From: Deltaproteobacteria bacterium
GTDB lineage: Bacteria; Desulfobacterota; Binatia; UTPRO1
Length of the DNA stretch: 64,000 nt
Direction: 5' to 3'
Assembly (NCBI GenBank): GCA_029262315.1
Contig: JAJCZP010000168.1
Span: forward strand, 10,825-74,824
The translations under genes were made by a program, and so were the position numbers. Below, piece by piece: positions 990 through 33,656 of this stretch (the stretch's first letter is position 1; every line of letters begins with the position of its first letter). The notes under the pieces are model-generated. The model ran no database searches and was not told where the DNA came from. It saw nothing but the letters and a program-made list of their open reading frames with translations.

Positions 990-1083
990 AACGGGGGAAA
1001 AACGGGGGACCACCTGGGGGAGTGCTCATCGTCGCCGACCCGGATGCCTCTGACGAAGAGGGTCGCCTCATGCTCCTCGGAAG

Positions 1084-1416
1084 CGGGTCGGGGACATCTC
1101 GGAGGACGCCTTGGCACAGCTGGGGCGATACGCGTTCCCCGGCAACATACGAGAGCTCGAGAACGAGCTGGAGCGGGCGATCCTTCTGGCCGATCCCGGG
1201 GCCGATCTCACGGAGGATCTGCTCTCGGATCATGTTCAGGATGGCGCCGGGGCTGACGCCCCGGCAAGCGCTCTAGACCGTCGCACTGCAGACTTCCAGC
1301 GGAAAGAGATCGAAGAAGCACTCAAACGGGCAGATAACGTCAAGACACGTGCCGCTGAACAACTCGGGATCACCACTCGCGGCCTCAGCAAGAAGATGCA
1401 CCGGCTGGGGATGTAG
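1084..1416 (+). pseudogene. C-terminal remnant of a sigma-54-dependent (NtrC-family) transcriptional activator
   Basis: Translation ...ISEDALAQLGRYAFPGNIRELENELERAILLA...AAEQLGITTRGLSKKMHRLGM. This is the AAA+ C-terminal 'PGNIRELEN' motif plus a Fis-type HTH. An in-frame stop lies immediately upstream (approx. 1051-1053), so there is no N-terminal receiver or AAA+ domain. Only about 110 aa remain. Confidence 0.6.
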
Positions 1417-1740
1417 CTCATCCGAAGGTCAACCGTTGCACCGCCGTGGATAGGCGAGGACCCACGGTATCTGAGCGGCGTCCATGCACCCGACCTCGAA
1501 GTCGCTGATGCAGCGCACGGAATCGATCAGGTCTACGATGGTCGCCACGTCCGCTTCGCAGGTCGCTCCGAGCGGGCCTCTCGCTCCACCGCCCACATAG
1601 CCGTCCTGGGCAAGGTGCCCTTGGGCATACGCGAGTGCTCGCCTACTGCGAGCGCGACACTATAGCGTTCGTCGAACTCCACGCCGCGTCGCGAAAGATA
1701 GGCCGCTAGCTCGATGTCGCCACCGGGAGGCTACGGCGCC

Positions 1741-2844
1741 TCATCCCGATCGCTTCTTTCTGAGCACACCCAGAGTCCGCTCCACCGTGGAGGCCGACCA
1801 TGGGTTACCCTGCTGCGTTCTGCCGCCAACGGCATCGAAACGCGCGGCAATCTCCACAGGCGTCAATCCGGCGTCAGCGAGGGCACGCATCTCCCTATGG
1901 AAGTAGGCTGGGAGCAGCACTTCGAAGGACGTTTCTCGGGCGCCGTCCTCCCAGTGGATGCGACCCCAGATACGCTCACGGTCCCGTCCCTCGATCAGAA
2001 TGGCCTGGACGGCGATCCGGAGAAGCTCCTTCTGGTCGCGCGCCTGGGTGGTTGGGGCAAACCAGATCGCACGAACGTCCCCGCAAATGGCCTCGACCTC
2101 CCTCCACTTCTCGTCCGAGAAGTCGTCTCCGATTCGATCCTCGCCAGCGGCAGCGCCTCCGCGTTCCATCTGCTCAACGCGCTCCGCCAGAGCCTCGATC
2201 TGACTTTCCAGCATCTCACGAACTCGGCGACGGTCCGGTCGACAGGTGGCGTACAGCGCGCCCAGACGATCGAACTCTTCGCGAAGTCGACGAAGCTCAT
2301 GCTGATGTCGTGTACCGGCTCGCCGCTGCTGGCGACGCCGCTCTTCCCAGAGGCGACGTACCTCTGGAATGGAAGGCCCCTGTAAATGATCCAGGAGAAG
2401 CTCAGCGACCCTCGCCTCGAAAGCGAGTCCTGGCATCGATATGCAGGCAGGACCTCCGCTCAGAAGATCTCCCATGCACCGTAGTTGGTACGACTTTGCG
2501 CGCTTCGAAGCGGAGGCCGCATACGCCACGCTCATGACGTGCTCGTCGTGACGCACGCAGCGAACGAGACCCTGCACAAGCGCAGGGCCTCGGCCCAAGG
2601 TCGAGTGGCGCGGGGTGTGGGCGTTTCGCGCGAGGATGCGGAGGTTCTCCTCGAATTCCTCGCGCGAGATGTAGCCCTCGTGATGGCCGAGCACCTCGAC
2701 CCACTGCCCGAACAGGCGCCCATTCACGACGGTGACCCCCTCCGCGCGCTCTTCCGCTTGTTGACCATTCCGTAGACGTAATCGCCGCAGAAGGCAGGGT
2801 GCCTGATCAAGTAGCGGACGCGCGCAACGGTTGGCGCGACCCAA
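1741..2844 (-). CDS. large serine recombinase, C-terminal part (recombinase domain, zinc-ribbon, coiled-coil); frame-shifted relative to the N-terminal ORF
   Basis: HEGYISREEFEENLRIL..., Cys-containing segment YQLRCMGDLLSGGPAC, and long Arg/Glu-rich coiled-coil are typical of large serine recombinases. It overlaps the 2724..3554 ORF in a different frame. Confidence 0.6.
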   Translation of the reverse strand: MGRANRCARPLLDQAPCLLRRLRLRNGQQAEERAEGVTVVNGRLFGQWVEVLGHHEGYISREEFEENLRILARNAHTPRHSTLGRGPALVQGLVRCVRHDEHVMSVAYAASASKRAKSYQLRCMGDLLSGGPACISMPGLAFEARVAELLLDHLQGPSIPEVRRLWEERRRQQRRAGTRHQHELRRLREEFDRLGALYATCRPDRRRVREMLESQIEALAERVEQMERGGAAAGEDRIGDDFSDEKWREVEAICGDVRAIWFAPTTQARDQKELLRIAVQAILIEGRDRERIWGRIHWEDGARETSFEVLLPAYFHREMRALADAGLTPVEIAARFDAVGGRTQQGNPWSASTVERTLGVLRKKRSG

Positions 2845-3554
2845 GCCACGCCGGACCCGCGCTTGGCTGGAATCTCGAGTCCGCGCCTTTTCAGCTCCCG
2901 TACCGTCTGCACGAGCGAGCGCACGGCGCGGAACACCTCGAACACCGACGCAACGGCCGTCCGGACCCGCTTGTCGGGATCCTTCCGCCAGCGACCCGTC
3001 CTGACTTCACGATCGCCCGAGCGCTCGTAGATCGCGCGATAGCCAACAGGCGGACGACTCACCGCCCGCCTATCTCGCACCTTGGCGATCCTGCCACGAT
3101 GCATGTTCTCGGTCCGGAGCTCGTTGTCACGCCCAGCGACGATCGCCTCGATCTGCTTCACGAACACTTGCGCCGAGTCGTGGGGATCGACGAGTCGACC
3201 GTCCACGATCAGCAAGACGTCGTGCGCCGCCAGCAGGCGTAGGAACAAGATCCATTCGACTGGGTCGCGGCCCGCTCGGCTGACATCCGAAATCAGGACG
3301 GCGCCCAGCTCGCCGCGCCGGATCATCGCCAGGAGCCTCTGGTAGCCCGGCCGCTTCGCCGTCATGCCGCTGAGCCCGAGGTCATCGTCGATCATGACGA
3401 TGTCGCGCTCCGACCACCCCAGGCGGAGCGCGTGCTCACGCTGTCCCTCTTGGTATCGCCGGCTGCCCTCGTTCTCTCTGACCTGCTCCAGCGTCGACTG
3501 CCGCTGGTATACGCCAGCCTTCTTCTTCAAGTACCGCTCTTCGATCTTCGTCAT
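2724..3554 (-). CDS. large serine recombinase, N-terminal part (resolvase/invertase catalytic domain plus start of recombinase domain)
   Basis: AGVYQRQSTLEQ carries the catalytic Ser. VLISDVSRAGRD, then ...NPAFCGDYVYG recombinase-domain motif. The ORF ends at 2724 while the continuation is in another frame (1741..2844). This is either a frameshifted pseudogene or a sequencing indel. Confidence 0.7.
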   Translation of the reverse strand: MTKIEERYLKKKAGVYQRQSTLEQVRENEGSRRYQEGQREHALRLGWSERDIVMIDDDLGLSGMTAKRPGYQRLLAMIRRGELGAVLISDVSRAGRDPVEWILFLRLLAAHDVLLIVDGRLVDPHDSAQVFVKQIEAIVAGRDNELRTENMHRGRIAKVRDRRAVSRPPVGYRAIYERSGDREVRTGRWRKDPDKRVRTAVASVFEVFRAVRSLVQTVRELKRRGLEIPAKRGSGVAWVAPTVARVRYLIRHPAFCGDYVYGMVNKRKSARRGSPS

Positions 3555-3743
3555 CGCTGCTTCCCTCCCCTACTCCTAGGTGCGCGCCCAGCACGCAGTT
3601 CTCGCCCTTTGGCCCCTGCCTTCCCCCGAGTCGCAGGGGGGAGCGCGACAACGCCCCCGTGCACCGCCTTGATCGCGAGATGCGCTAGCAACCTGACGGC
3701 GTCCGCCTTCCGCTTGTCGGCCTCCATGGGATGGACGACTAGC

Positions 3744-3783
3744 GCATGAGCTAACATGTTTCAAAAATTGTATGATCTCATGC
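3744..3783. promoter_or_regulatory. AT-rich imperfect inverted repeat (gcatgag N26 ctcatgc) in an otherwise GC-rich region; candidate att/recombinase or promoter site
   Basis: Seen in sequence, ~190-235 nt upstream of the serine recombinase start. Includes an ATGCAT palindrome at 3780-3785. Confidence 0.25.
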
Positions 3784-3961
3784 ATCGTATATCTCCGCTG
3801 TTACTTCGCGGGCTTACGCACGGTCGGCCTCGGCGCGGATCGTCTCGCCTCCAGATCCGTGAGGAGCTGGTGGAGGGCCCGAACCGACACGACTGCGCGG
3901 TCGAGGTCGCACCCTCGGCGGTTGTCGCCTCGCCGGTCGATGGGACCTTCCCGAACGCGAC

Positions 3962-4180
3962 TCATCGCAGCTTCCCCGTACCCGGCTGCGGAGTCCGATC
4001 GGTGGAGCCCTCAAGATCCTTCCCCTGGAGGAACTCCTCTAGAGCAGCGCGGGGCACGACGAAGCGACGCCCGACCCGAACAACCGGTATCTGCCCTTGG
4101 CGAGCTGCCTCGTAGGCACAGCTACGCCCTATCCCGAGGACCTGGGCCGCCTCTTCCACTGTCAGGGTCTCCCTCTCCAT
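3962..4180 (-). CDS. excisionase / AlpA-like helix-turn-helix DNA-binding protein
   Basis: 72 aa. LTVEEAAQVLGIGRSCAYEAARQGQIPVVRVGRRFVVPRAALEEFL matches the excisionase-family HTH_17 pattern. Confidence 0.7.
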   Translation of the reverse strand: MERETLTVEEAAQVLGIGRSCAYEAARQGQIPVVRVGRRFVVPRAALEEFLQGKDLEGSTDRTPQPGTGKLR

Positions 4181-4267
4181 CCCCTCACCTCACTGCTGAC
4201 CCTTGAACTTATAGCGATCGGCTACTAGTAAGGTAACACGCTTTCTCGCACATAAACGTCACGGAGG

Positions 4268-5353
4268 ATGGGGATGATAGATGAGGTCGTGAGGCGAGAG
4301 TTGTTCGACTTCTGCTGGGACGTGCACGTGGACGGCTACACGTTGCTCAAGACGAAGACGGTGAAGAACCGCCCCCCGCTAGTTCGCCCTACACGTCCCA
4401 GGGGCGACGCTGAGCAGGATGTCCATGAACTCGACAAGGAACGGTCACGACCCGCGCTGTTCATCACTAGTGGCCTCCCGCTCGAAGCTCAGGGATTCAA
4501 GCTGAGGAGGTTCGCCCCGCTCGCCGAGACCGGGTTGTTCCGCGAATTCGCGGGGACGGCACCTACACCAGAGGGAGTCCTGGCATTCGCTAACAAGTAT
4601 GGCCTCCTCGGCGGCAGGGTTGCGGCCGAGATCGAGCTTGACCGGCAAGCCGGTCGTGCCGCCGCTCTGGGTGAACCGCTGAGTGCCTGGCGCGATCAGA
4701 TCTTCTTCATTCGCGAGGCTCTGAGGCTCTGGGAGGATACTCGCGCGGGCAATGTCGAACGCCTCGCCAAGGTGATCCGCAAGCGAGAGGTTAGCGGCGA
4801 CGAAGGCGTCGAGTACCAAGCAGAGGAACACCCCAGCAATGAGGTCGGGTTCCCATGCTGGTACGAGAAAATCGCCACGAGAAACGTTTACTCGGACATC
4901 CTCGAGGCTTTTCCGCCAGGTGACTTGATCAAACCCGCGCTCTACCTCGTCCAGCGATGGGTGAACCGGCATCTAGAGGGAAACGTCTCACCCCTGATGC
5001 TGTGGGACAAGCACCGCTTGCGCCTGCAGCTGTACGTCGTGCCGCACAACCTGCTTGGCGCACTCTGGCTGCAGCTTGCTCGAGCGATCGAGGGAGACAA
5101 GATGTACCGCCAGTGCGGGGCCTGTATGAAGTGGTTCGAACTCTCCCCGGACACGGCCCGAACGAATCGGAAATTCTGCTCGAACGCCTGTCGGTCACGC
5201 GACTATCGCGAGCGCACTGCTGCCAGCATGCCTGCCGCTTCCCGAGGGCCTTCTGCCGACCCGCCCGCAAGACGGGAGAAGCCGACATCGCGACGTCAGC
5301 AAGGAAAGGCCGGGGCATCGAGAAGCCGGACCCGGAAGGGAGCAACCAAATGA
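4268..5353 (+). CDS. hypothetical protein with C-terminal zf-CGNR-like zinc ribbon and basic tail
   Basis: C-terminus YRQCGACMKWFELSPDTARTNRKFCSNACRSRDYRER resembles the CGNR zinc finger (C-x2-C ... RxxxFCS.ACRxRxYR). Its stop overlaps the integrase ATG (ATGA), implying translational coupling. An AT-rich divergent promoter region lies at 4181-4267. Confidence 0.5.
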   Translation: MGMIDEVVRRELFDFCWDVHVDGYTLLKTKTVKNRPPLVRPTRPRGDAEQDVHELDKERSRPALFITSGLPLEAQGFKLRRFAPLAETGLFREFAGTAPTPEGVLAFANKYGLLGGRVAAEIELDRQAGRAAALGEPLSAWRDQIFFIREALRLWEDTRAGNVERLAKVIRKREVSGDEGVEYQAEEHPSNEVGFPCWYEKIATRNVYSDILEAFPPGDLIKPALYLVQRWVNRHLEGNVSPLMLWDKHRLRLQLYVVPHNLLGALWLQLARAIEGDKMYRQCGACMKWFELSPDTARTNRKFCSNACRSRDYRERTAASMPAASRGPSADPPARREKPTSRRQQGKAGASRSRTRKGATK

Positions 5354-6519
5354 GGGGACACATTCGACAACGAGGGCAGAGGTCATGGGCGATCGTCCTC
5401 GATCTCGGTCGCGATGCACGAGGCAAGCGCCGACAGAAATGGCACAAGGTTGCCGGGACCAAGCGCGATGCCCAGCGAGAGCTTACTCGCCTACTTCGGG
5501 ATCTCGATACCGGCACCTACGTCGAGCCGTCGCAGATGACAGTCGGCACCTACCTCGAGAAGTGGCTGCGCGACTACGCGAAAACCAACGTCTCCGCCAA
5601 GACATTCGAACGCTATGCCGAGATCGCCCGCGTCCACCTCATCCCTGCGCTCGGCCACTTGCCTCTCGCAAGGATCCAGCCGCTTCATATCCAAGACTAC
5701 TACTCCGTCGCCCTAGAGAGCGGTCGTCGCGACGGCCACGGCGGGCTTTCTGCTCAAACGGTGCTCCATCATCATCGCCTGCTGCGGGCGGCCCTGCGCC
5801 AGGCGCTGAAGTGGCAGCTTCTCGGGCGGAACCCGGCCGACGCCGTCGAGCCTCCCCGGCCCAAACGTCCCGAAATGCGGGTCCTGGATGCAGCGGAAAC
5901 TGGTCGGCTCGTGGCGAGTACGAAGGGAACACGCCTATTCCTTCCTGTGCTGTTGGCCGTCACAACGGGCATGCGACGCGGAGAGATCCTTGGACTCCGT
6001 TGGAAGGACGTGGACTTGAAAAAGGCGACGCTGGCCGTACGACGGTCGCTCGAACAGACCAAGGGCGGCATTCAGTTCAAAGAACCGAAGACGCAGAAGG
6101 GGCGACGCGTGGTAGCTCTGCCAGAAATCGCCGTCGATGCCCTCCGCTCACACAAGACTCGGCAGGCAAAGCATCGCCTCCTATTGGGTCGTGTCTATGA
6201 GAATGGCGATCTCGTTTGCGCCAAGGAAAACGGTAAGCCGACCGTCCCCGCCGATCTCAGCAAGTCCTTCGCACGCCTTCTCGGTCGCCTGGAAGGCGAC
6301 GTCCCGCCGATTCGACTCCACGACCTCCGGCACACTCACGCGACACAATTGCTGCGCGAAGGCATCCACCCGAAGGTCGTTAGCGAGCGGCTCGGCCACT
6401 CGACGGTGGCTTTCACCCTCGACGTCTATTCCCATGTGCTGCCCAGCATGCAGGCTGATGCCGCCCGAAGCATCGACCGCGCACTTGCTCACACCGGAGT
6501 AGCGAACGACACCGATTGA
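5350..6519 (+). CDS. tyrosine-type site-specific integrase (phage integrase family)
   Basis: MRGHIRQRGQRSWAIVLDLG... has the N-terminal arm-binding/SAM-like organisation. Catalytic signature is RRGEILGLRWKDVDL...HDLRHTHAT...LGHSTVAFTLDVYSHV (R..HxxR..Y). The long ORF from 4957 is rejected because its upstream part is the out-of-frame tail of the preceding gene region. Confidence 0.85.
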   Translation: MRGHIRQRGQRSWAIVLDLGRDARGKRRQKWHKVAGTKRDAQRELTRLLRDLDTGTYVEPSQMTVGTYLEKWLRDYAKTNVSAKTFERYAEIARVHLIPALGHLPLARIQPLHIQDYYSVALESGRRDGHGGLSAQTVLHHHRLLRAALRQALKWQLLGRNPADAVEPPRPKRPEMRVLDAAETGRLVASTKGTRLFLPVLLAVTTGMRRGEILGLRWKDVDLKKATLAVRRSLEQTKGGIQFKEPKTQKGRRVVALPEIAVDALRSHKTRQAKHRLLLGRVYENGDLVCAKENGKPTVPADLSKSFARLLGRLEGDVPPIRLHDLRHTHATQLLREGIHPKVVSERLGHSTVAFTLDVYSHVLPSMQADAARSIDRALAHTGVANDTD

Positions 6520-6640
6520 TTTCGACCGCTTCGCGCGACGCTCCCGGCACGACTCTCCGCAAGCTGTTTCGTTCTGATACTCGTCGCACAGGCTCCCGCT
6601 TTCGATTGCGACGGCGCCGCCTTCCAGGTACCGGTGTCGC

Positions 6641-7732
6641 ATGGCCATCCGCCGGGTGCTCATCGAGAACTTCAGAAGCATCAAGAAATGCGAGTTCTTT
6701 CCAACCGACCTTTGCGCTCTTGTGGGGGAGAACAACGCGGGAAAGTCGAACATCCTCGAAGCGCTCGACCTAGTCCTCGGCAGGGACTTCGTAAGCGTGA
6801 ATACCTTCGCGGCATCTGACCACTTCAACCACGACCCAGCTGCGGACATCGTCATCGAAGTGGAGTTCGACCCACCGCTGAAGATCCAGCCGTTCAAGGG
6901 TAGCAGTCCCGTCGAGATCCCGGTTCTGCGCTACACTGTCACCCAGTTCAAGGTCGCAACGAAGCGCGGCAAGAAGGGCGACCCCAGACTGGATACGAAG
7001 TGCCTCGCTACCGACGGGAAGCCGGTTTTCATCCCACAAGAGGCTCCGAAGAAGGGCAAGAAGACGACTTTTGCTCCGCTGACGAACATCCCTCCAGAAG
7101 TCCGCGAGCAGATGCCGGTAATTTTCATAGGGACTGACCGAAGCCTTGATCGACAGCTTCCCTCAGCCGGTCGATGGTCGTTGCTTCGCCGGCTCCTTGA
7201 AGACGTGAACGATCGGCTGCGTGAGACTACCGTTACGGTCGAGAGCAACGGTAAGCTTGTGGAAAAGTCGGCTGTCGAGGTCTTCGAGGAGCAGCTCGCC
7301 TCTGCGCTCGGCACCCTTCGAATTCCGGAGTTCCAACAACTAGAGGAACTCCTGCGTGTACACGCACTCGAGAACCTCGGCTACGACCCCGAGCACGACG
7401 CGGACCGACTGCGCTTCCACTTCGGGCTCTTCGACTCGATGGCCTTCTACCGGACAGTCCGGCTTCTCTTCACAGAAGGAAGTCTCGAACTGGACGCGAC
7501 GCAAATGGGAGAGGGGGCGCAGAACGCACTCGTCATCGCGATCTTCCAGGCGTACGAGGCGCTGCGAAAGAAGGAAGCTGTCTTCCTCCTCGAGGAACCA
7601 GAGATGTTTCTACATCCGCATCGCCGTCGCTTCTTTTACCAAACCCTGCAACGCATCAGCGAGAACAACCAGATCCTCTACAGCACCCATTCTGCCAACT
7701 TCGTCTCGACGCCGGAATACGAGAACGTGTGA
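6641..7732 (+). CDS. OLD-family (overcoming lysogenization defect) ABC-type ATPase domain protein
   Basis: N-terminus IENFRSIKKCEFFPTDLCALVGENNAGKSNILEALDLVLG has the Walker A of the AAA_15/OLD family, cf. P2 Old. C-terminus AVFLLEEPEMFLHPHRRR...YSTHS has Walker B plus H-loop. It ends at TGA 7730-7732. Confidence 0.8.
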   Translation: MAIRRVLIENFRSIKKCEFFPTDLCALVGENNAGKSNILEALDLVLGRDFVSVNTFAASDHFNHDPAADIVIEVEFDPPLKIQPFKGSSPVEIPVLRYTVTQFKVATKRGKKGDPRLDTKCLATDGKPVFIPQEAPKKGKKTTFAPLTNIPPEVREQMPVIFIGTDRSLDRQLPSAGRWSLLRRLLEDVNDRLRETTVTVESNGKLVEKSAVEVFEEQLASALGTLRIPEFQQLEELLRVHALENLGYDPEHDADRLRFHFGLFDSMAFYRTVRLLFTEGSLELDATQMGEGAQNALVIAIFQAYEALRKKEAVFLLEEPEMFLHPHRRRFFYQTLQRISENNQILYSTHSANFVSTPEYENV

Positions 7733-7735
7733 CTC

Positions 7736-8320
7736 GTGTACCGGGATCCTTTCGAGTTCACGCAAGTACGAGCATCCTCACTCGAGCCAACTGAGCAACT
7801 CCGCGAGAAACTTCGTCAGGAACTGGACGCAGAACGCAACGAGCTATTCTTCGCGCGACACGTCATCCTCGTGGAAGGCGATACTGAGAAGCTGGCACTT
7901 CCGGAGTACGCGAGGCGTCTCGGGTTGAACCTCGACCGCGGGGGTTGCTCAATCGTGGAAGTTGGGGGGAAGCGGAACCTGCCCATGTTCCTAGACGTAG
8001 TCAGCTCTTTCGGCATCCCCGTTACCGTTGTCTTCGACACCGACTCGTCCGACTTCCCCAAGGGGAAACAAGACGAGGAGGAAGCCTTCAACGCCGAACT
8101 AAGCGCTCGCCAGAACGATTTAGTACGCGTCACCGAGGTCAGCCCAAAGTACGAGGCTGTTCTCCGCGACCAGATCGGCGACGCTACCTACCAAGCGCTC
8201 TGCCAGAAGTATCCGGGGGCCTCGAAACCGCGTCGGGCGCGACTGATCGCAGCCGACAACGAAGCACCCGTCCCCGCCCTCGCCAACGAGATCCTCAAAC
8301 CGCTCCTCGCACCGGAGTAG
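7736..8320 (+). CDS. OLD-family TOPRIM nuclease domain protein (in frame with upstream ATPase ORF, separated by one TGA)
   Basis: HVILVEGDTEKLALPEYARRLG...VVFDTDSSD are the TOPRIM glutamate and DxD motifs of OLD nucleases. GTG at 7736 is in the same frame as 6641..7732, 3 nt after its stop. Confidence 0.75.
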   Translation: MYRDPFEFTQVRASSLEPTEQLREKLRQELDAERNELFFARHVILVEGDTEKLALPEYARRLGLNLDRGGCSIVEVGGKRNLPMFLDVVSSFGIPVTVVFDTDSSDFPKGKQDEEEAFNAELSARQNDLVRVTEVSPKYEAVLRDQIGDATYQALCQKYPGASKPRRARLIAADNEAPVPALANEILKPLLAPE

Positions 8321-8336
8321 AACTCGGCTACCCGGT

Positions 8337-8359
8337 GGTTTGCAGATGGTTTGCAAACC
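8337..8359. promoter_or_regulatory. hairpin/palindrome ggtttgca-N7-tgcaaacc (contains perfect 12-bp palindrome GGTTTGCAAACC) between OLD gene and tRNA-Ser 3' end
   Basis: Seen in sequence. No U-tract follows. Candidate integrase core-type site or transcription attenuator. Confidence 0.3.
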
Positions 8360-8418
8360 GCTGGCAAGGCCCTCGCAGACTATCAGGACGAGGACCGCAA
8401 GCTCCTGAAGTTATTGAG

Positions 8419-8503
8419 CGGAGGGGGTGGGATTCGAACCCACGAGAGCTTGCGCCCTGCCGGTTTTCAAGACCGGTGCCTTCGACCGCTCGGCCACCCC
8501 TCC
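8419..8503 (-). tRNA. tRNA-Ser (anticodon UGA)
   Basis: Reverse complement folds as GGAGGGG-T-GGCCGAGCGGTCGAAGGC-ACCGG-CTTGAAA-ACCGG-long variable arm-GTGGGTTCGAATCCCAC-CCCCTCC-G. It has a 7-bp acceptor stem, a 5-bp anticodon stem and a loop CU-UGA-AA. The long variable arm indicates a class II tRNA. CCA is not encoded. Plus-strand ORF 8351..8650 ('GGGIRTHE') is the tRNA shadow. Confidence 0.85.
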
Positions 8504-8697
8504 GGTGGTGTGCGCGTGAAGCGCCGGGCCGAGTTTTGCCCTGCCCGCTCGAAGTTGCAACCGACGCCGTATCGGCGCGGCGGACACGGCCGTGAGGAAT
8601 TCGATGTACGGCGCCGCGGCTCAGCGTCGGAGCGCTACCCTACACCCTGATTGCGCTATTTGAGGTACCTGAGCACTCGCGAGCCGCGCCCCGCTGT

Positions 8698-29685: not shown

Positions 29686-30897
29686 TCAGGTCGAGTACGC
29701 GGAATTGAAGCGCACGTACGCTGGCGTGAGATCGCTCGTCGTCATCGCCGCCGCGCCGGTCCCGCCGCTGCCGAGATCGATACCGACGGTGAACGCCGAC
29801 TGGCGCATCAAGCGCGCCGCGCGGCGTTCGGCATCGCCTGGCACGGGCGCTCCCCGACGTAGCACCGGCACATTCCCGATGCGGACCGTCATCCGCTCGA
29901 GTCGCAGCGGCACGCCGGCATAGCCCGCCGCGCATACGATCCGGCCCCAGTTGGGATCTCCGCCGTACAACGCCGTCTTGACCAGCAGCGAGCCAGCAAT
30001 CGAGCGCGCCACCTGCCGCGCGGCCCGTCCACTTCGCGCGCCCCGGACGGCGATCCGCACGCGCTTGGTCGCCCCCTCCCCGTCGGCCACGACGTAATCC
30101 GCGAGTTCGCGCGTGACCGCCGCCAGTGCCGCACCGAACCGGCGACCATCGGCCGAGGTTCGGGCGAGAGGAGCGTTTCCGGCGTATCCGTTCGCCAGCG
30201 CAAGCACCGTGTCGTTCGTGCTCGTGTCTCCGTCGACCGTGATCGCATTGAAGGACTCGGCAACCGCGTCCGCGAGAAAGCCGCGGAGTGCCGGTGTGGG
30301 CACCGTCGCATCGGTGAGCAGGCACACGATCAGCGTTGCGAGGTCGGGCGCGATCATGCCCGCCCCCTTGGCGAGCCCAGCGATCGTCACCATGCGGCCG
30401 TCGATCCGCAGCCTACGGGACGCCACCTTGGGAAAAGCATCGGTCGTCATCATGGCGCGAGCTGCGTGCCACAACCGATCGTCGCCCAGCGCCCGCACTG
30501 CCTTTGCGATGCCCCGCACCATCGGCACGGCGGGGAGCGGCACGCCGATCTTCCCGGTAGAACACGGCACTACGGCGGAGACTGGTATGCCGAGCGCGAT
30601 CGCGGTCTGCCGACATGCGGCTCGCGCCACCCGTTCGCCCGCCGCGCCCGTACACGCGTTGGCATTGCCGCTGTTGATCAAGACGGCCTGCCCATGGCCT
30701 CGTCGCACGTGCCGCGCCGCCAGATCCACGGCGATCGCCCGAACCCGATTCTGCGTGAACACGCCCGCAACCGTCGCGGGAACCTCGGAGTGAATCAGCG
30801 CCAGATCGCGGCGGCCGCTCGGCTTGATGCCGCAAGTGACACCGGCGAACCGAAATCCGGGAACGCGAAGCGGCCGTTCGCGGATCTCACGTCGCAT
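29686..30897 (-). CDS. argJ: bifunctional glutamate N-acetyltransferase / amino-acid acetyltransferase (ornithine acetyltransferase)
   Basis: ArgJ family: ...GMIAPDLATLIVCLLTDA contains the autoprocessing Thr site (ATL). Confidence 0.85.
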   Translation of the reverse strand: MRREIRERPLRVPGFRFAGVTCGIKPSGRRDLALIHSEVPATVAGVFTQNRVRAIAVDLAARHVRRGHGQAVLINSGNANACTGAAGERVARAACRQTAIALGIPVSAVVPCSTGKIGVPLPAVPMVRGIAKAVRALGDDRLWHAARAMMTTDAFPKVASRRLRIDGRMVTIAGLAKGAGMIAPDLATLIVCLLTDATVPTPALRGFLADAVAESFNAITVDGDTSTNDTVLALANGYAGNAPLARTSADGRRFGAALAAVTRELADYVVADGEGATKRVRIAVRGARSGRAARQVARSIAGSLLVKTALYGGDPNWGRIVCAAGYAGVPLRLERMTVRIGNVPVLRRGAPVPGDAERRAARLMRQSAFTVGIDLGSGGTGAAAMTTSDLTPAYVRFNSAYST

Positions 30898-30972
30898 GAC
30901 ACACCACTACGCCTTCACGTCGCATGACACACCACTACGCCTTCACGTCGCATGACACACCACTACGCCTTC
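30889..30972. repeat. perfect 28-bp tandem repeat x3 (acgtcgcatgacacaccactacgccttc) spanning secA stop / argJ start junction
   Basis: Three identical contiguous units at 30889-30916, 30917-30944 and 30945-30972. Each unit contains the reverse complement of '...AAG GCG TAG' (secA K-A-stop), a 9-nt spacer, and 'ATG CGA CGT' (argJ M-R-R). Confidence 0.9.
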
Positions 30973-33656
30973 GCGCCGCAACACTTCTTGTACTTCTTGC
31001 CCGAACCGCACACGCACGGATCGTTCCGTCCCACCTTGGGCTGGTCGCGGCGGACGGTCTCTGGCTTCGCATCGGCACCCGCCTCGCCGTGGCTCATGAC
31101 CATGGGCGTCGCCCGGCGCTTCTGCTCGAGCCGCTCGACGTCCTCCTCGCGCGCGAGTTGGACCGTATAGAGCCGCTCCACGATATCGACATCGAGCCGC
31201 CCCATCATTTCCTGGAACATCTCGAACCCTTCGCGCTGATACTCGTTCAAGGGATTCTTCTGCCCGTAACCGCGGAGACCGATGCCTTCCTTGAGATGGT
31301 CCATCGCGAGGAGATGGTCCTTCCACGTGCCATCGATCGTCTGCAGCATGATCACCTTCTCGAGGTGCCGCAGCACGGGCGCGGTGAACGTTTGTTCTCG
31401 CTCTCCGTAGAGCGCCTTGACCCGCTCGACGAGGAGCTCTTGCACCGCCTCGGGTGTCAGGCCGGCCTGCTCATCCTCGGAAAGATTCAGACGACAATTG
31501 AATTGCTTGAACACCAGATCGTCGAGCGCCTTCCAGTCCCACTCGGAAGGATGGATGTCTTTACTGATCACCTGCGGCACGAGGTTCTCGGCCAGGTCCT
31601 CGGCGGCCTCGATCACGTCTTCCTTGAGATCGACCTCGGCCAGTACCGCGCGACGGCGGGCGTAGATGACCTCACGCTGCTTGTTCATGACGTCGTCGTA
31701 TTCGAGGAGGTGCTTCCGGATGTCGAAGTTGTGCCCTTCGACCTTCTTTTGCGCATTCTCGATGGCGGCGTTGATCCACCGATGCTCGATGGGCTCGCCT
31801 TCCTCCATCCCAAGGCGCTCCATGATCTTCTGCACCCGCTCGGCGCCGAAGATGCGCAGGAGATCGTCCTCGAGCGACATGTAGAACCGCGATGTTCCGG
31901 GATCGCCTTGGCGCCCGGAACGGCCGCGCAGCTGATTGTCGATACGCCGACTCTCGTGGCGCTCGGTGCCCAGGATGTGCAGCCCGCCGGCCTCCAGCAC
32001 CTTCTCGCGATCGGCGGCACACTCCACCTTGTGCTTCTCGAACGCGGCCTGGAACGTTGGATCGTTCGGATCGCGGGTGCCGGCCTCGTTCGCGGCCAGC
32101 GTCTCCGCGTTGCCTCCGAGGACGATGTCGGTACCGCGGCCGGCCATGTTCGTCGAGATCGTGAGCGAGCCCGAGCTGCCCGCCTGCGCAACGATCTCGG
32201 CCTCGCGGCCGTGCTGCTTGGCGTTCAGCACGTCGTGCTTGATGCCGCGCTGCTTTAGAAGTCGGCCGACGTGTTCTGACTTTTCGATCGAGATGGTGCC
32301 GACCAAGATCGGTTGGCCGCGGGCGTGGCGCTCGGCAATATCGTCGGCGACCGCCTCGAACTTCTCGCGTTCGGTCTTGTAGACGACGTCGGGCAAGTCT
32401 TCACGAACCATCGGCTTGTGCGTCGGCATGACCATCACGCCGAGCCCGTAGATCTGCCCGAACTCCACGGCCTCGGTGTCGGCAGTGCCGGTCATGCCCG
32501 CGAGCTTCTTGTACATGCGAAAATAGTTCTGGAACGTCACCGTCGCGAGCGTCTGGTTCTCGCGCTCGATCTTGACGTTCTCCATCGCCTCCACGGCCTG
32601 GTGGAGCCCATCGCTCCAACGCCGCCCGGGCATCATTCGGCCGGTGAACTCGTCGACGATGATGATCTCGCCGTCCTTCACGACATAGTCGACGTCGCGC
32701 CTGTAGAGCGCGTGCGCGCGCAGCGCCTGATTCACATGGTGGAGCGTGTCGATCTGGCCCGGATCGTACAGGTTCGAAACGCCAAGAATCTCCTCGACCT
32801 TATTGATACCCTCCTCGGTCAGTAGGGCGTTCTTCGTCTTCTCGTCGACCGTGAAGTGCTCTTCCTTCTGCAGCCGGGGAATGACGCGATCGACGACATA
32901 GTACTTCTCCGTCGACTCCTCCGCCGGGCCGGAGATGATGAGCGGCGTCCGCGCCTCATCTATGAGAATCGAATCGACCTCGTCGACGATCGCGTAGTTG
33001 AAGAGCTTGGTGACTTGTTGGCCTTTGAAGTTCGTCACCTCCTCCGGCTTCACGCGATGCACGTACTCGTCGAGGTCGAACTTCATGTTGTCGCGGAGGT
33101 AATCGAACCCGAACTCGTTGTTCTGTCCGTAGGTGACGTCGGCGTTGTAGGCGACCTTCCGTTCCTGATCGTCCATCCCATGAAGGATGACGCCGATCGA
33201 CAAGCCGAGGAAGTTGTAGAGCCGCCCCATCCACTCGGCGTCACGCCGGGCCAGGTAATCGTTCACGGTGATGACGTGCACGCCCTCGCCGGCAAGCGCG
33301 TTCAGGTAGACCGGAAGCGTGGCCACCAGCGTCTTCCCTTCACCGGTCTTCATCTCGGCCAGGACGCCTCGGTGGAGCACCACACCACCGAGCAGCTGGA
33401 CATCGAAGTGGCGCATCCCGAGGACGCGTATGGAGGCCTCCCGGCAGACGGCGAACGCCTCCGGCAGGAGATCGTCGAGCGAGGCCCCCTGCTCGAGCTG
33501 CTCCTTGAACGCACCCGTCTTGGCACGCAACTCGTCGTCCGAGAGCGCCTGTATCGCCGGCTCGAGCTCATTGATGCTCGCCACGATGGGCTGCATCTTC
33601 TTGAGGTCGCGGTCGTTCTTGGTCCCGATGACCCTACGGACGAGACTTTTCAGCAT
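30963..33656 (-). CDS. secA: preprotein translocase ATPase subunit SecA
   Basis: Full-length SecA: DEAD-like motor ([12 protein letters not shown]...), C-terminal zinc-binding tail [14 protein letters not shown]. 897 aa. Confidence 0.95.

What the first reader, a model, noticed from the sequence alone, without database searches (positions are those of the whole stretch)
6641..8320. Class-1 OLD-family nuclease split by a single in-frame TGA into ATPase and TOPRIM ORFs, carried next to a tRNA-Ser
**Shape and placement**
- ORF 6641..7732 has the OLD/AAA_15 Walker A (VGENNAGKSNILEA) and Walker B/H-loop (FLLEEPEMFLHP...THS).
- ORF 7736..8320 has the OLD TOPRIM motifs (ILVEGDTEK, VVFDTDSSD).
- Both ORFs are in the same frame, separated only by TGA (7730-7732) plus one codon.
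- Read-through would give a ~559-aa protein, the size of stand-alone class-1 OLD nucleases (P2 Old-like anti-phage/abortive-infection effectors).
- No Gabija-type helicase partner is adjacent.
- The gene sits between a tyrosine integrase and the 3' end of tRNA-Ser and looks lower in GC than the flanks. This is the typical placement of a defense cargo on an integrative element.

**Possible explanations**
- A recent nonsense mutation inactivating a defense gene.
- A sequencing error.
- TGA read-through.
- A PARIS-like two-polypeptide (AriA-like ATPase plus AriB-like TOPRIM) arrangement caught at the point of fission. Reinitiation at the GTG without a clear SD would be needed for this.
Basis: partly seen in the sequence, partly recalled or inferred. 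Interest (0 to 1): 0.75.

Follow-up and report, generated by a model that had tools for sequence, protein, structure and literature searches.

The report
Broken stand-alone OLD defence nuclease gene
A single-gene anti-phage nuclease (Class 1 OLD family) on a small, decaying mobile island beside a tRNA-Ser gene is cut in two by one premature stop codon, most likely an ordinary, recent inactivating mutation and not a new two-part system.

Summary
ORF 6641-7732 (363 aa, ABC-type ATPase) and ORF 7736-8320 (194 aa, OLD-like TOPRIM) are in one frame, separated by TGA 7730-7732 plus one codon. Joined, they give a 559-aa protein. Its best sequence and fold match is the Class 1 OLD nuclease of Thermus scotoductus (6P74). 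All 119 other proteins among the top 120 database hits are single polypeptides of 527-693 aa, and 23 of 24 near-full-length genome loci have one uninterrupted ORF. The stop aligns with Arg in the nearest relatives (CGG in the closest), so CGA to TGA is the likely change. A second, separate assembly of reads (Logan, SRR15505516) carries the identical TGA, so this is not an assembler artefact. The stop lies about 40 residues before the ATPase/TOPRIM boundary, just ahead of two predicted ATPase β-strands, so it is not a clean domain fission. ORF2 has no Shine-Dalgarno sequence and matches no DUF4435 (AriB) model. The downstream part shows no decay, so the mutation is recent. The island (integrase, low GC3, tRNA-Ser) also carries a frameshifted serine recombinase. 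Verdict: a recently pseudogenised Class 1 OLD gene. Low interest.

The parts
6641..8320 (+). Class 1 OLD-family nuclease gene (559 codons if the stop is read as a sense codon), interrupted by one in-frame stop
   Evidence: One-frame translation. Homologues at E = 1e-275, all single proteins. 6P74 matches at E = 1.3e-50 over residues 3-481. Foldseek best hit is 6P74, TM 0.68/0.73. The best PADLOC model for the joined protein is Old, 170.6 bits.
6641..7732 (+). ORF1, 363 aa: ABC-type ATPase with Walker A, the inserted helical (dimerisation) region, Walker B and the H-loop, but lacking the last two predicted β-strands of the ATPase core. Carries G312E at a position that is Gly in 118 of 119 homologues.
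   Evidence: Pfam AAA_15/AAA_21. Secondary structure of the AlphaFold model. Column counts.
7730..7732 (+). Premature TGA (codon 364), followed by C (UGA-C context). Aligns with Arg in the nearest relatives.
   Evidence: Sequence. Column residues across the 23 homologues are RRRRRHAKHHHHRRRRRLALVGM. Across 119 homologues the counts are R36 L23 V22 A18 H9, with no Cys. The closest homologue has CGG. CGA is 9 of the 42 Arg codons in this gene. The same TGA is in Logan contig SRR15505516_337009.
7736..8320 (+). ORF2, 194 aa from GTG. It holds two ATPase-core β-strands (res 366-368, 374-376), two linking helices and the TOPRIM domain, with the catalytic residues E412, E416, D466 and D468 intact. 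No Shine-Dalgarno sequence lies upstream.
   Evidence: Pfam PF20469 4.2e-22. Alignment to Ts OLD E377/D381/D431/D433. Upstream sequence GAATACGAGAACGTGTGACTC.
5347..6519 (+). Tyrosine integrase (390 aa from the homology-supported start); ends in TGA
   Evidence: Pfam Phage_integrase, Phage_int_SAM_3 and Arm-DNA-bind_4. phrog_1 integrase 1.2e-76.
8418..8503 (-). tRNA-Ser (anticodon TGA), with its 3' end facing the island
   Evidence: ARAGORN. Rfam RF00005, 61.9 bits.
1741..3554 (-). Large serine recombinase broken by a frameshift near 2718-2745 (a G5 run at 2736-2740). It is a homologue of the recombinase that sits next to the intact OLD gene in the closest related locus.
   Evidence: tblastn with the 600-aa L001 protein gives residues 2-269 in frame -3 and 274-589 in frame -2. 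Pfam Resolvase and Recombinase. Sequence.
4268..5353 (+). 361-aa hypothetical protein overlapping the integrase start. C-terminal Cys-rich segment; no defence-system match.
   Evidence: No Pfam or PADLOC hit. Weak phrog_1271 HNH-like hit, 1e-6.
1050..8417 (.). Approximate extent of the lower-GC3 island. The left limit is approximate, and no att repeat was found.
   Evidence: GC3 frame plot. GC profile. Repeat searches were negative.

Best explanation
This is a Class 1 (stand-alone, P2 Old / Thermus scotoductus OLD type) OLD-family ATPase-TOPRIM nuclease gene. It is carried as cargo on a small integrase-bearing island at tRNA-Ser. It has suffered a genuine, recent nonsense mutation at codon 364, most likely CGA (Arg) to TGA.

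In its intact form the protein would work like other Class 1 OLDs. These are homodimers held together by a helical domain inserted in the ABC ATPase, and ATP binding or hydrolysis controls a two-metal TOPRIM nuclease that damages nucleic acid during phage infection.

In this allele, translation stops before the last two core β-strands of the ATPase. The TOPRIM part has no ribosome-binding site of its own. The gene is therefore inactive or severely crippled. The same island also has a frameshifted serine recombinase, so the element as a whole appears to be decaying.

Shown: the family, the stop, its presence in a second, separate assembly of reads, the single-polypeptide state of the relatives, and the position of the stop in the fold. 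Inferred: the loss of function, the ancestral codon, and the mechanism of the intact protein (taken from the literature on the family).
For: - **Family and class.** Pfam AAA_15/AAA_21 plus OLD-like_TOPRIM. 6P74 (Ts OLD, Class 1) matches at E = 1.3e-50 over residues 3-481, against 1e-12 for GajA. The AlphaFold model (pLDDT 86.6, pTM 0.83) has 6P74 as best fold match at E = 9e-34, TM 0.68/0.73, against about 0.54 for GajA. The best PADLOC model for the joined protein is Old.
- **Single polypeptide is the norm.** 119 of the top 120 hits are 527-693 aa, and the only split entry is this window. 23 of 24 near-full-length loci in species-representative genomes have one uninterrupted ORF. Phage family phrog_4747 spans both ORFs.
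- **Stand-alone context in relatives.** Neighbours are ParDE, integrases, resolvases, AbiJ and methyltransferases, with no UvrD-type helicase.
- **The stop column.** It is Arg in the five nearest relatives and in Ts OLD (R324) and is never Cys. The closest homologue has CGG. CGA is a common Arg codon in this gene.
- **The TGA is real.** A Logan contig from SRR15505516 is 100% identical over 7523-8446, TGA included.
- **TGA is an ordinary stop here.** 21 of 41 long high-GC3 ORFs end in TGA, including the integrase and the sulfatase.
- **The stop is inside the ATPase fold.** Strands 366-368 and 374-376 follow it in the model. The NTR/CTR boundary of Ts OLD (369/370) corresponds to residues 404/405 here.
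- **No independent expression signals for ORF2.** There is no Shine-Dalgarno sequence and no promoter-like site.
- **A second broken gene on the island.** The serine recombinase is frameshifted.
Against: - The part downstream of the stop shows no decay. It deviates at 2 of 61 columns that are at least 90% conserved, like intact homologues, and shows no lineage-specific acceleration: 12 of 194 unique changes against 13 of 194 in the nearest relative. This fits a very recent mutation, but it equally fits continued selection on ORF2.
- From general knowledge, not tested here: UGA followed by C is a weak termination context in E. coli, and a GTG lies 3 nt after the stop. Some full-length or ORF2 product cannot be excluded.
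- Induced expression of E. coli YbjD (a Class 1 OLD) keeps its anti-phage phenotype without the TOPRIM domain (PMC13261556). An ATPase-only product is therefore not necessarily inert.
- Only one genome carries this allele. The Logan run may be the same read set the deposited assembly was built from, so it excludes an assembler artefact but not a rare variant in the sample.
Confidence: 0.8

Rival explanations
1. Functional two-polypeptide OLD (a PARIS-like fission in progress). Ribosomes terminating at TGA 7730-7732 reinitiate at GTG 7736. The two chains reassemble, with ORF2 supplying the missing ATPase strands in trans.
For: - The GTG lies only 3 nt after the stop.
- All catalytic and conserved residues of ORF2 are intact.
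- ORF1's best PADLOC hit on its own is an AriA model covering the full profile, 1.4e-33.
- PARIS shows that an ATPase and a TOPRIM can work as separate chains (PMC10568477).
Against: - There is no Shine-Dalgarno sequence before the GTG.
- The break is about 40 residues before the domain boundary, inside the ATPase β-sheet.
- ORF2 matches OLD/GajA-type TOPRIM models, not DUF4435.
- The joined protein scores Old above AriA, 170.6 against 112.9 bits.
- No relative has a conserved split. The one locus with similar ORF lengths (L094, 364 + 192 aa) has frameshifts at more than one place.
Confidence: 0.06
2. Leaky or programmed read-through of UGA-C gives a low dose of full-length OLD, for example Trp inserted at codon 364. 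This would keep a toxic effector at a tolerable level.
For: - The stop is followed by C.
- Position 364 is variable across homologues (R, L, V, A, H, M, G, I), so a substituted residue would probably be tolerated.
- The downstream frame is intact.
Against: - The stretch around and downstream of the stop has no stimulatory structure: the fold of 7715-7800 has z = +0.87.
- Rfam finds no element there.
- No homologue has a stop at this position.
- Basal read-through is normally a few percent at most (general knowledge). That would be an accident of context, not a design.
Confidence: 0.05
3. Sequencing or assembly error: the true sequence has a sense codon and the gene is intact.
For: - The source appears to be a draft contig of 84 kb.
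- A second gene on the island is frameshifted at a G5 homopolymer run, a typical error site.
Against: - A separate assembly from raw reads (Logan, SRR15505516) is identical base for base over 924 nt, including the TGA.
- The lesion is a substitution, not a homopolymer indel.
Confidence: 0.05
4. The truncated ATPase-only product (ORF1) is itself the active defence or toxic protein, as reported for E. coli YbjD lacking its TOPRIM domain.
For: - YbjD residues 1-377 retain anti-phage phenotypes on induced expression (PMC13261556).
- ORF1 keeps Walker A, Walker B, the H-loop and the inserted helical domain.
Against: - ORF1 ends about 40 residues earlier than the domain boundary used for Ts OLD NTR (1-369, equivalent to about 1-404 here). 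It loses two core β-strands.
- It also carries G312E next to Walker B, where 118 of 119 homologues have Gly.
- P2 Old needs both domains in vivo (PMC7049728).
Confidence: 0.04

Closest known systems
Thermus scotoductus OLD (PDB 6P74) and phage P2 Old: Class 1 OLD-family nucleases
   Same: [quoted passage not shown]
- About 560 aa and stand-alone genomic context.
- Conserved metal ligands: E412, E416, D466 and D468 correspond to Ts E377, D381, D431 and D433.
- Best sequence hit (E = 1.3e-50) and best fold hit.
   Different: - Only 26% identity to Ts OLD over the structural alignment.
- This allele is interrupted by a stop at the position of Ts R324.
- G312E sits next to Walker B.
- It is carried on a tRNA-Ser island with a tyrosine integrase, not on a P2-type prophage.
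Vibrio cholerae Vc OLD and E. coli YbjD/OldB (bacterial Class 1 OLDs with shown anti-phage phenotypes)
   Same: Single-gene OLD proteins in bacterial chromosomes or mobile elements (PMC12392090, PMC13261556).
   Different: - Those genes are intact and were tested experimentally. Nothing is tested here.
- YbjD tolerates loss of the TOPRIM domain, but its truncation is at the domain boundary (1-377), not inside the ATPase.
Gabija GajA (Class 2 OLD)
   Same: ATPase plus TOPRIM architecture. GajA models hit both ORFs, and GajA structures are the second-best fold matches.
   Different: - No GajB/UvrD-like helicase is adjacent in the window or in relatives.
- The matches are much weaker (1e-12; TM about 0.54).
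PARIS AriA/AriB (proposed Class 4 OLD)
   Same: The ATPase and TOPRIM are on two ORFs. An AriA model aligns end to end with ORF1.
   Different: - AriB is a DUF4435-type TOPRIM, and ORF2 is not.
- The break is inside the ATPase fold.
- ORF2 has no ribosome-binding site.
- All close relatives are fused.
- The joined protein scores higher on Old than on AriA.

Membership tests
OLD-family nuclease, Class 1 | N-terminal ABC-type ATPase with Walker A, Walker B and H-loop | tested here: met
   AAA_15 5.6e-32, AAA_21 3.7e-23 and SMC_N. Motifs GENNAGKS, LLEEPE and THS are present. Caveat: G312E next to Walker B.
OLD-family nuclease, Class 1 | Helical dimerisation domain inserted in the ATPase | tested here: met
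   The model has helices 181-245 between ATPase strands. The whole-chain fold match to 6P74 has TM 0.68/0.73. Dimerisation itself was not tested.
OLD-family nuclease, Class 1 | C-terminal TOPRIM with conserved acidic metal ligands, without the Class 2 helical insert or C-terminal bundle | tested here: met
   PF20469 4.2e-22. E412, E416, D466 and D468 align to Ts E377, D381, D431 and D433. Total length is 559 aa. 6P74 is the best fold match, ahead of GajA.
OLD-family nuclease, Class 1 | ATPase and TOPRIM on one polypeptide | tested here: not met
   An in-frame TGA sits at codon 364 in this allele. The feature is met in all 119 other top hits, so this is a disrupted member of the family.
OLD-family nuclease, Class 1 | Stand-alone gene: no UvrD/PcrA/Rep-like helicase, retron or other partner adjacent | tested here: met
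   The neighbours are an integrase and tRNA-Ser. The island ORFs have no PADLOC hit. Relatives are also stand-alone.
OLD-family nuclease, Class 1 | ATP hydrolysis, metal-dependent nuclease activity and anti-phage phenotype | not testable with these tools
   Needs biochemistry and phage challenge.
Gabija (Class 2 OLD, GajA/GajB) | GajB helicase gene immediately downstream | tested here: not met
   tRNA-Ser lies downstream, followed by a sulfatase on the opposite strand.
PARIS (AriA/AriB) | Second gene encodes a DUF4435-type TOPRIM (AriB) | tested here: not met
   ORF2 hits only PF20469 in Pfam. The 25 PADLOC hits listed (of 43 matched) are all GajA or Old models, with no AriB among them.
PARIS (AriA/AriB) | Two genes with their own translation signals, conserved as two genes in relatives | tested here: not met
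   No Shine-Dalgarno sequence precedes the GTG at 7736. Relatives are fused.
Retron-associated OLD (Class 3) | Adjacent reverse transcriptase and msr/msd non-coding RNA | tested here: not met
   The neighbouring ORFs scanned with Pfam contain no reverse transcriptase. Rfam finds only the tRNA in the 64-kb window.
tRNA-integrated genomic island | Integrase next to a tRNA gene's 3' end, with deviant base composition | tested here: met
tRNA-integrated genomic island | Direct repeat of the tRNA 3' segment (att) at the far end | tested here: not met
   No repeat of 11 nt or more of 8321-8520 lies in a plausible position. The island may be degraded or its far end eroded.

The most novel reading that the evidence does not exclude
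The TGA allele is maintained rather than decaying. Termination-reinitiation at the GTG 3 nt downstream, or leaky UGA-C read-through, would yield either a two-chain OLD or a low, tolerable dose of full-length nuclease. In the two-chain case the TOPRIM chain donates the last two ATPase β-strands in trans. That would be a natural snapshot of how a fused Class 1 OLD could become a PARIS-like two-gene system.
Probability: 0.06. Interest if true: 0.5.

Novelty: new member of a known kind. Interest (0 to 1): 0.12.

Why it matters
It matters little beyond correct annotation. The two ORFs should be annotated as one disrupted Class 1 OLD gene, not as an AAA ATPase plus a separate TOPRIM protein or a PARIS-like pair. 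This is another example of a defence gene on a mobile island being inactivated soon after, or during, the decay of its carrier. Other remnants of the same subfamily were seen in passing, which suggests such losses recur. If the minority reading were true, the locus would offer a natural test of whether OLD ATPase and TOPRIM modules can work as separate chains.

Tried and rejected
- **att repeats.** I searched for a direct repeat of the tRNA-Ser 3' end: a 31-mer with 3 mismatches, the repeat finder and k-mer diagonals. None was found, so the left island border is set only by GC3.
- **Selenocysteine or recoding.** No homologue has Cys at the stop column. The RNA at 7715-7800 folds no better than shuffles, z = +0.87. 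Rfam finds nothing there. TGA ends about half of the long ORFs in the window. Rejected.
- **Intact allele in JGI metagenomes.** An exact pattern with NNN at the stop codon gave no match, so this was uninformative.
- **Natural split forms.**
  - A search with ORF2 alone returned only short proteins, mostly fragments from 1-3 kb contigs. That list is biased towards short entries and cannot give a fused-to-split ratio.
  - L094 has 364 + 192 aa ORFs, which looked like the same split, but it carries more than one frameshift.
  - P0188 is a TOPRIM-only ORF with no ATPase ORF called upstream.
  - L095 has a 206-aa TOPRIM-only ORF with no upstream gene called for about 700 nt.
- **Source record and host taxon.** Exact look-ups of ORF1 and of the 361-aa ORF found no gene on record. 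The run accession appears in no paper held. The host taxon stays unknown. The nearest OLD homologue is in a Polyangiaceae MAG.
- **Plasmids.** A plasmid DNA search found only a 50-nt Walker-A match.
Full report
**1. What is in the sequence**

Translating window 6641-8320 in one frame gives 363 residues, a single stop (TGA, 7730-7732), then 195 more residues to TAG at 8318-8320. The ORF list reports 6641..7732 (ATG) and 7736..8320 (GTG) on the plus strand.
- ORF1 matches Pfam AAA_15 (5.6e-32) and AAA_21 (3.7e-23).
- ORF2 matches PF20469 OLD-like_TOPRIM (4.2e-22) and nothing else.
- A tRNA-Ser(TGA) lies at 8418-8503 on the minus strand.
- A tyrosine integrase lies at about 5347-6519.
- Beyond the tRNA comes a sulfatase on the other strand. 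No helicase is adjacent.

**2. Which family**

The joined protein has its best solved relative in Thermus scotoductus OLD (6P74). That protein is the structural archetype of Class 1 OLD nucleases.
- The 6P74 match is E = 1.3e-50 over residues 3-481. GajA (Class 2) reaches only 1e-12.
- An AlphaFold model built on 24 sequences (pLDDT 86.6, pTM 0.83) finds 6P74 as best fold match: E = 9e-34, TM 0.68/0.73. GajA follows at about 0.54, and retron Eco8 OLD is lower.
- In PADLOC, ORF1 alone scores slightly best on an AriA model, which is an ATPase-only model and so fits an ATPase-only query end to end.
- The joined protein scores best on Old: 170.6 bits, against GajA 160.2 and AriA 112.9.
- The metal ligands of Ts OLD (E377, D381, D431, D433; PMC7049728) align with E412, E416, D466 and D468 here.
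- Relatives sit alone among toxin-antitoxin genes, integrases, resolvases, AbiJ and methyltransferases, never next to a UvrD-like helicase.
- One 49%-identical full-length copy lies on a 48.6-kb viral contig. Phage family phrog_4747 spans both ORFs.

This is a Class 1 OLD gene.

**3. Is the split a property of the family or of this copy?**

- Among the 120 best database hits, 119 are single proteins of 527-693 aa (median 561). The only split entry is the window's own ORF1.
- In 24 species-representative genome loci with near-full-length matches, 23 have one uninterrupted ORF. One (L020) is disrupted.
- A search with ORF2 alone turned up short proteins only, mostly fragments from short contigs. 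Three of them on longer contigs were inspected:
  - L094 has frameshifts at more than one place.
  - P0188 is a TOPRIM-only ORF with no ATPase ORF called upstream. It was seen on at least 24 contigs from several samples, and one source labels it Holophaga sp..
  - L095 has a 206-aa TOPRIM-only ORF with no upstream gene called for about 700 nt, in a locus that also has a Tn3-type transposase fragment.

None of these is a conserved two-gene arrangement. The split is private to this copy.

**4. Nature of the lesion**

- The stop column holds Arg in the five nearest relatives and in Ts OLD. Further out it holds H, K, A, L, V, G or M, and never Cys.
- The closest relative (76% identity, a Polyangiaceae MAG) has CGG there.
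- CGA is the second most used Arg codon in this gene, 9 of 42. A single C-to-T change from CGA to TGA is therefore the simplest history. This step is inferred.
- TGA is an ordinary stop in this genome. It ends 21 of 41 long high-GC3 ORFs, among them the integrase and the sulfatase.
- The RNA around the stop folds no better than shuffled sequence, z = +0.87. Rfam finds no element there. Selenocysteine or an alternative genetic code can be set aside.

**5. Is the TGA real?**

Both ORFs are on record as called genes of an 84,262-bp NCBI contig. ORF2 is also on record from a Logan assembly. That Logan contig (SRR15505516_337009, 924 nt) is identical to window 7523-8446 at every base, including the TGA. 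An assembler artefact is therefore excluded. I could not establish whether that run is the same read set used for the deposited assembly.

**6. Where the stop falls in the fold**

- Schiltz et al. split Ts OLD into NTR 1-369 and CTR 370-525 (PMC7049728). By the phmmer alignment, that boundary corresponds to residues 404/405 here, and the stop corresponds to Ts R324.
- In the model, the H-loop strand (344-348) is followed by two more strands (366-368, 374-376) and two helices (385-404). The first TOPRIM strand (407-411) comes after those.
- In Ts OLD the last two ATPase strands, β11 and β12, lie in the middle of the sheet (order β7-6-4-1-2-12-11-3-10-9-8). I infer that strands 366-368 and 374-376 correspond to them.
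- ORF1 is thus an ATPase missing two core strands, and ORF2 carries them. This is not the clean module boundary seen in PARIS.
- ORF2's GTG has no Shine-Dalgarno sequence upstream (GAATACGAGAACGTGTGACTC|GTG), and no promoter-like site is found.

**7. Age of the lesion**

- At columns at least 90% conserved among 23 homologues, the window deviates at 4 of 94 columns upstream and 2 of 61 downstream of the stop. That is within the range of intact homologues.
- Lineage-specific changes downstream (12 of 194) match those of the nearest relative (13 of 194).
- Two window-specific changes hit highly conserved positions. G312E lies six residues before the Walker B acidic pair (E318-E319), where 118 of 119 homologues have Gly and one has Asp. 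P397A is at a position where 115 of 119 have Pro.

The lack of downstream decay means the stop is recent. Alternatively ORF2 is still under selection, and these data cannot separate the two.

**8. The carrier**

- From about 1050 to 8417, GC3 is 0.70-0.78 against 0.83-0.90 in the flanking genes. GC drops to 57-59% over the OLD gene.
- The segment holds:
  - a C-terminal remnant of a sigma-54 activator;
  - a large serine recombinase split by a frameshift at a G5 run;
  - a 361-aa hypothetical protein;
  - the tyrosine integrase;
  - the OLD gene.
- The recombinase is homologous to the one that sits beside the intact OLD gene in the Polyangiaceae locus.
- No att repeat of the tRNA 3' end was found.

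Two broken genes and a missing att site fit a decaying island.

**9. Mechanism**

- Intact Class 1 OLDs are dimers through the inserted helical domain. They hydrolyse ATP and cut or nick DNA through a two-metal TOPRIM site. P2 Old needs both activities in vivo (PMC7049728), and Vc OLD needs its ATP-binding residues (cited in PMC13261556).
- For this allele, the most likely outcome is a truncated, unstable ATPase and no TOPRIM product, that is, loss of defence (confidence 0.8).
- Rivals kept open at low probability are termination-reinitiation giving two chains (0.06), UGA-C read-through (0.05), a sequencing error (0.05), and an active ATPase-only product by analogy with YbjD lacking its TOPRIM domain (0.04; PMC13261556).

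**10. Verdict**

This is a correctly observed, ordinary event: a recently pseudogenised member of a known family on a degrading mobile element. It is new only as a member. Interest is 0.12.

Noticed in passing
window 1741-3554 (-): A large serine recombinase is split by a frameshift near 2718-2745, next to a GGGGG run at 2736-2740. The two halves match residues 2-269 (frame -3, 56% identity) and 274-589 (frame -2, 40% identity) of the 600-aa recombinase that neighbours the intact OLD homologue in locus L001. This is either a real second pseudogene on the island or a homopolymer error.
   Followed up: partly
window ~1050-1416 (+): Only the C-terminal ~115 residues of a sigma-54 enhancer-binding protein are present (GNIRELENELERA plus a Fis-type HTH). 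No AAA+ core lies upstream. The gene remnant sits at the left edge of the low-GC3 segment.
   Followed up: no
window 8337-8359 (+): Seventeen nt after the OLD stop codon lies GGTTTGCA-GAT-GGTTTGCA-AACC. This is an 8-nt direct repeat at 11-nt spacing that can also form an 8-bp hairpin (GGTTTGCA/TGCAAACC) with no T-run. It could be a terminator-like hairpin or a recombinase-binding site between the cargo gene and the tRNA.
   Followed up: no
window 7574-7576 (codon 312 of the OLD gene): G312E (GAA; the closest homologue has GGG) lies six residues before the Walker B acidic pair (E318-E319). 118 of 119 homologues have Gly and one has Asp. It may be a second damaging or attenuating mutation in the same gene.
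   Followed up: partly
L090-L093 (P0188, 186 aa): A TOPRIM-only OLD ORF with no ATPase ORF called upstream lies beside an AbiEi_4 gene. The identical protein is on at least 24 contigs from several samples, and one source labels it Holophaga sp. This looks like a stably carried OLD fragment in another lineage.
   Followed up: partly
L094 2920-4579 and L020: Other disrupted copies of the same OLD subfamily. L094 has frameshifts at more than one place, one just before Walker B. In L020 (a Gemmatimonadetes MAG) the largest uninterrupted ORF covers only 60% of the match. Loss of this gene seems to recur.
   Followed up: partly
window 30887-30980: A 28-nt unit (TCACGTCGCATGACACACCACTACGCCT) is repeated 3.4 times in tandem at 96% identity. 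It spans the junction between two minus-strand ORFs.
   Followed up: no
window, whole: TAG is an unusually common stop: 19 of 41 long high-GC3 ORFs, against 21 TGA and 1 TAA. The list includes some overlapping shadow ORFs, so the ratio is rough.
   Followed up: no
window 4268-5353 (+): A 361-aa protein with no Pfam or PADLOC match. Its stop overlaps the integrase start by 7 nt. The C-terminus has a CGAC...CSNAC Cys cluster and a weak HNH-like PHROG hit (1e-6). It may be an accessory factor of the integrase.
   Followed up: partly
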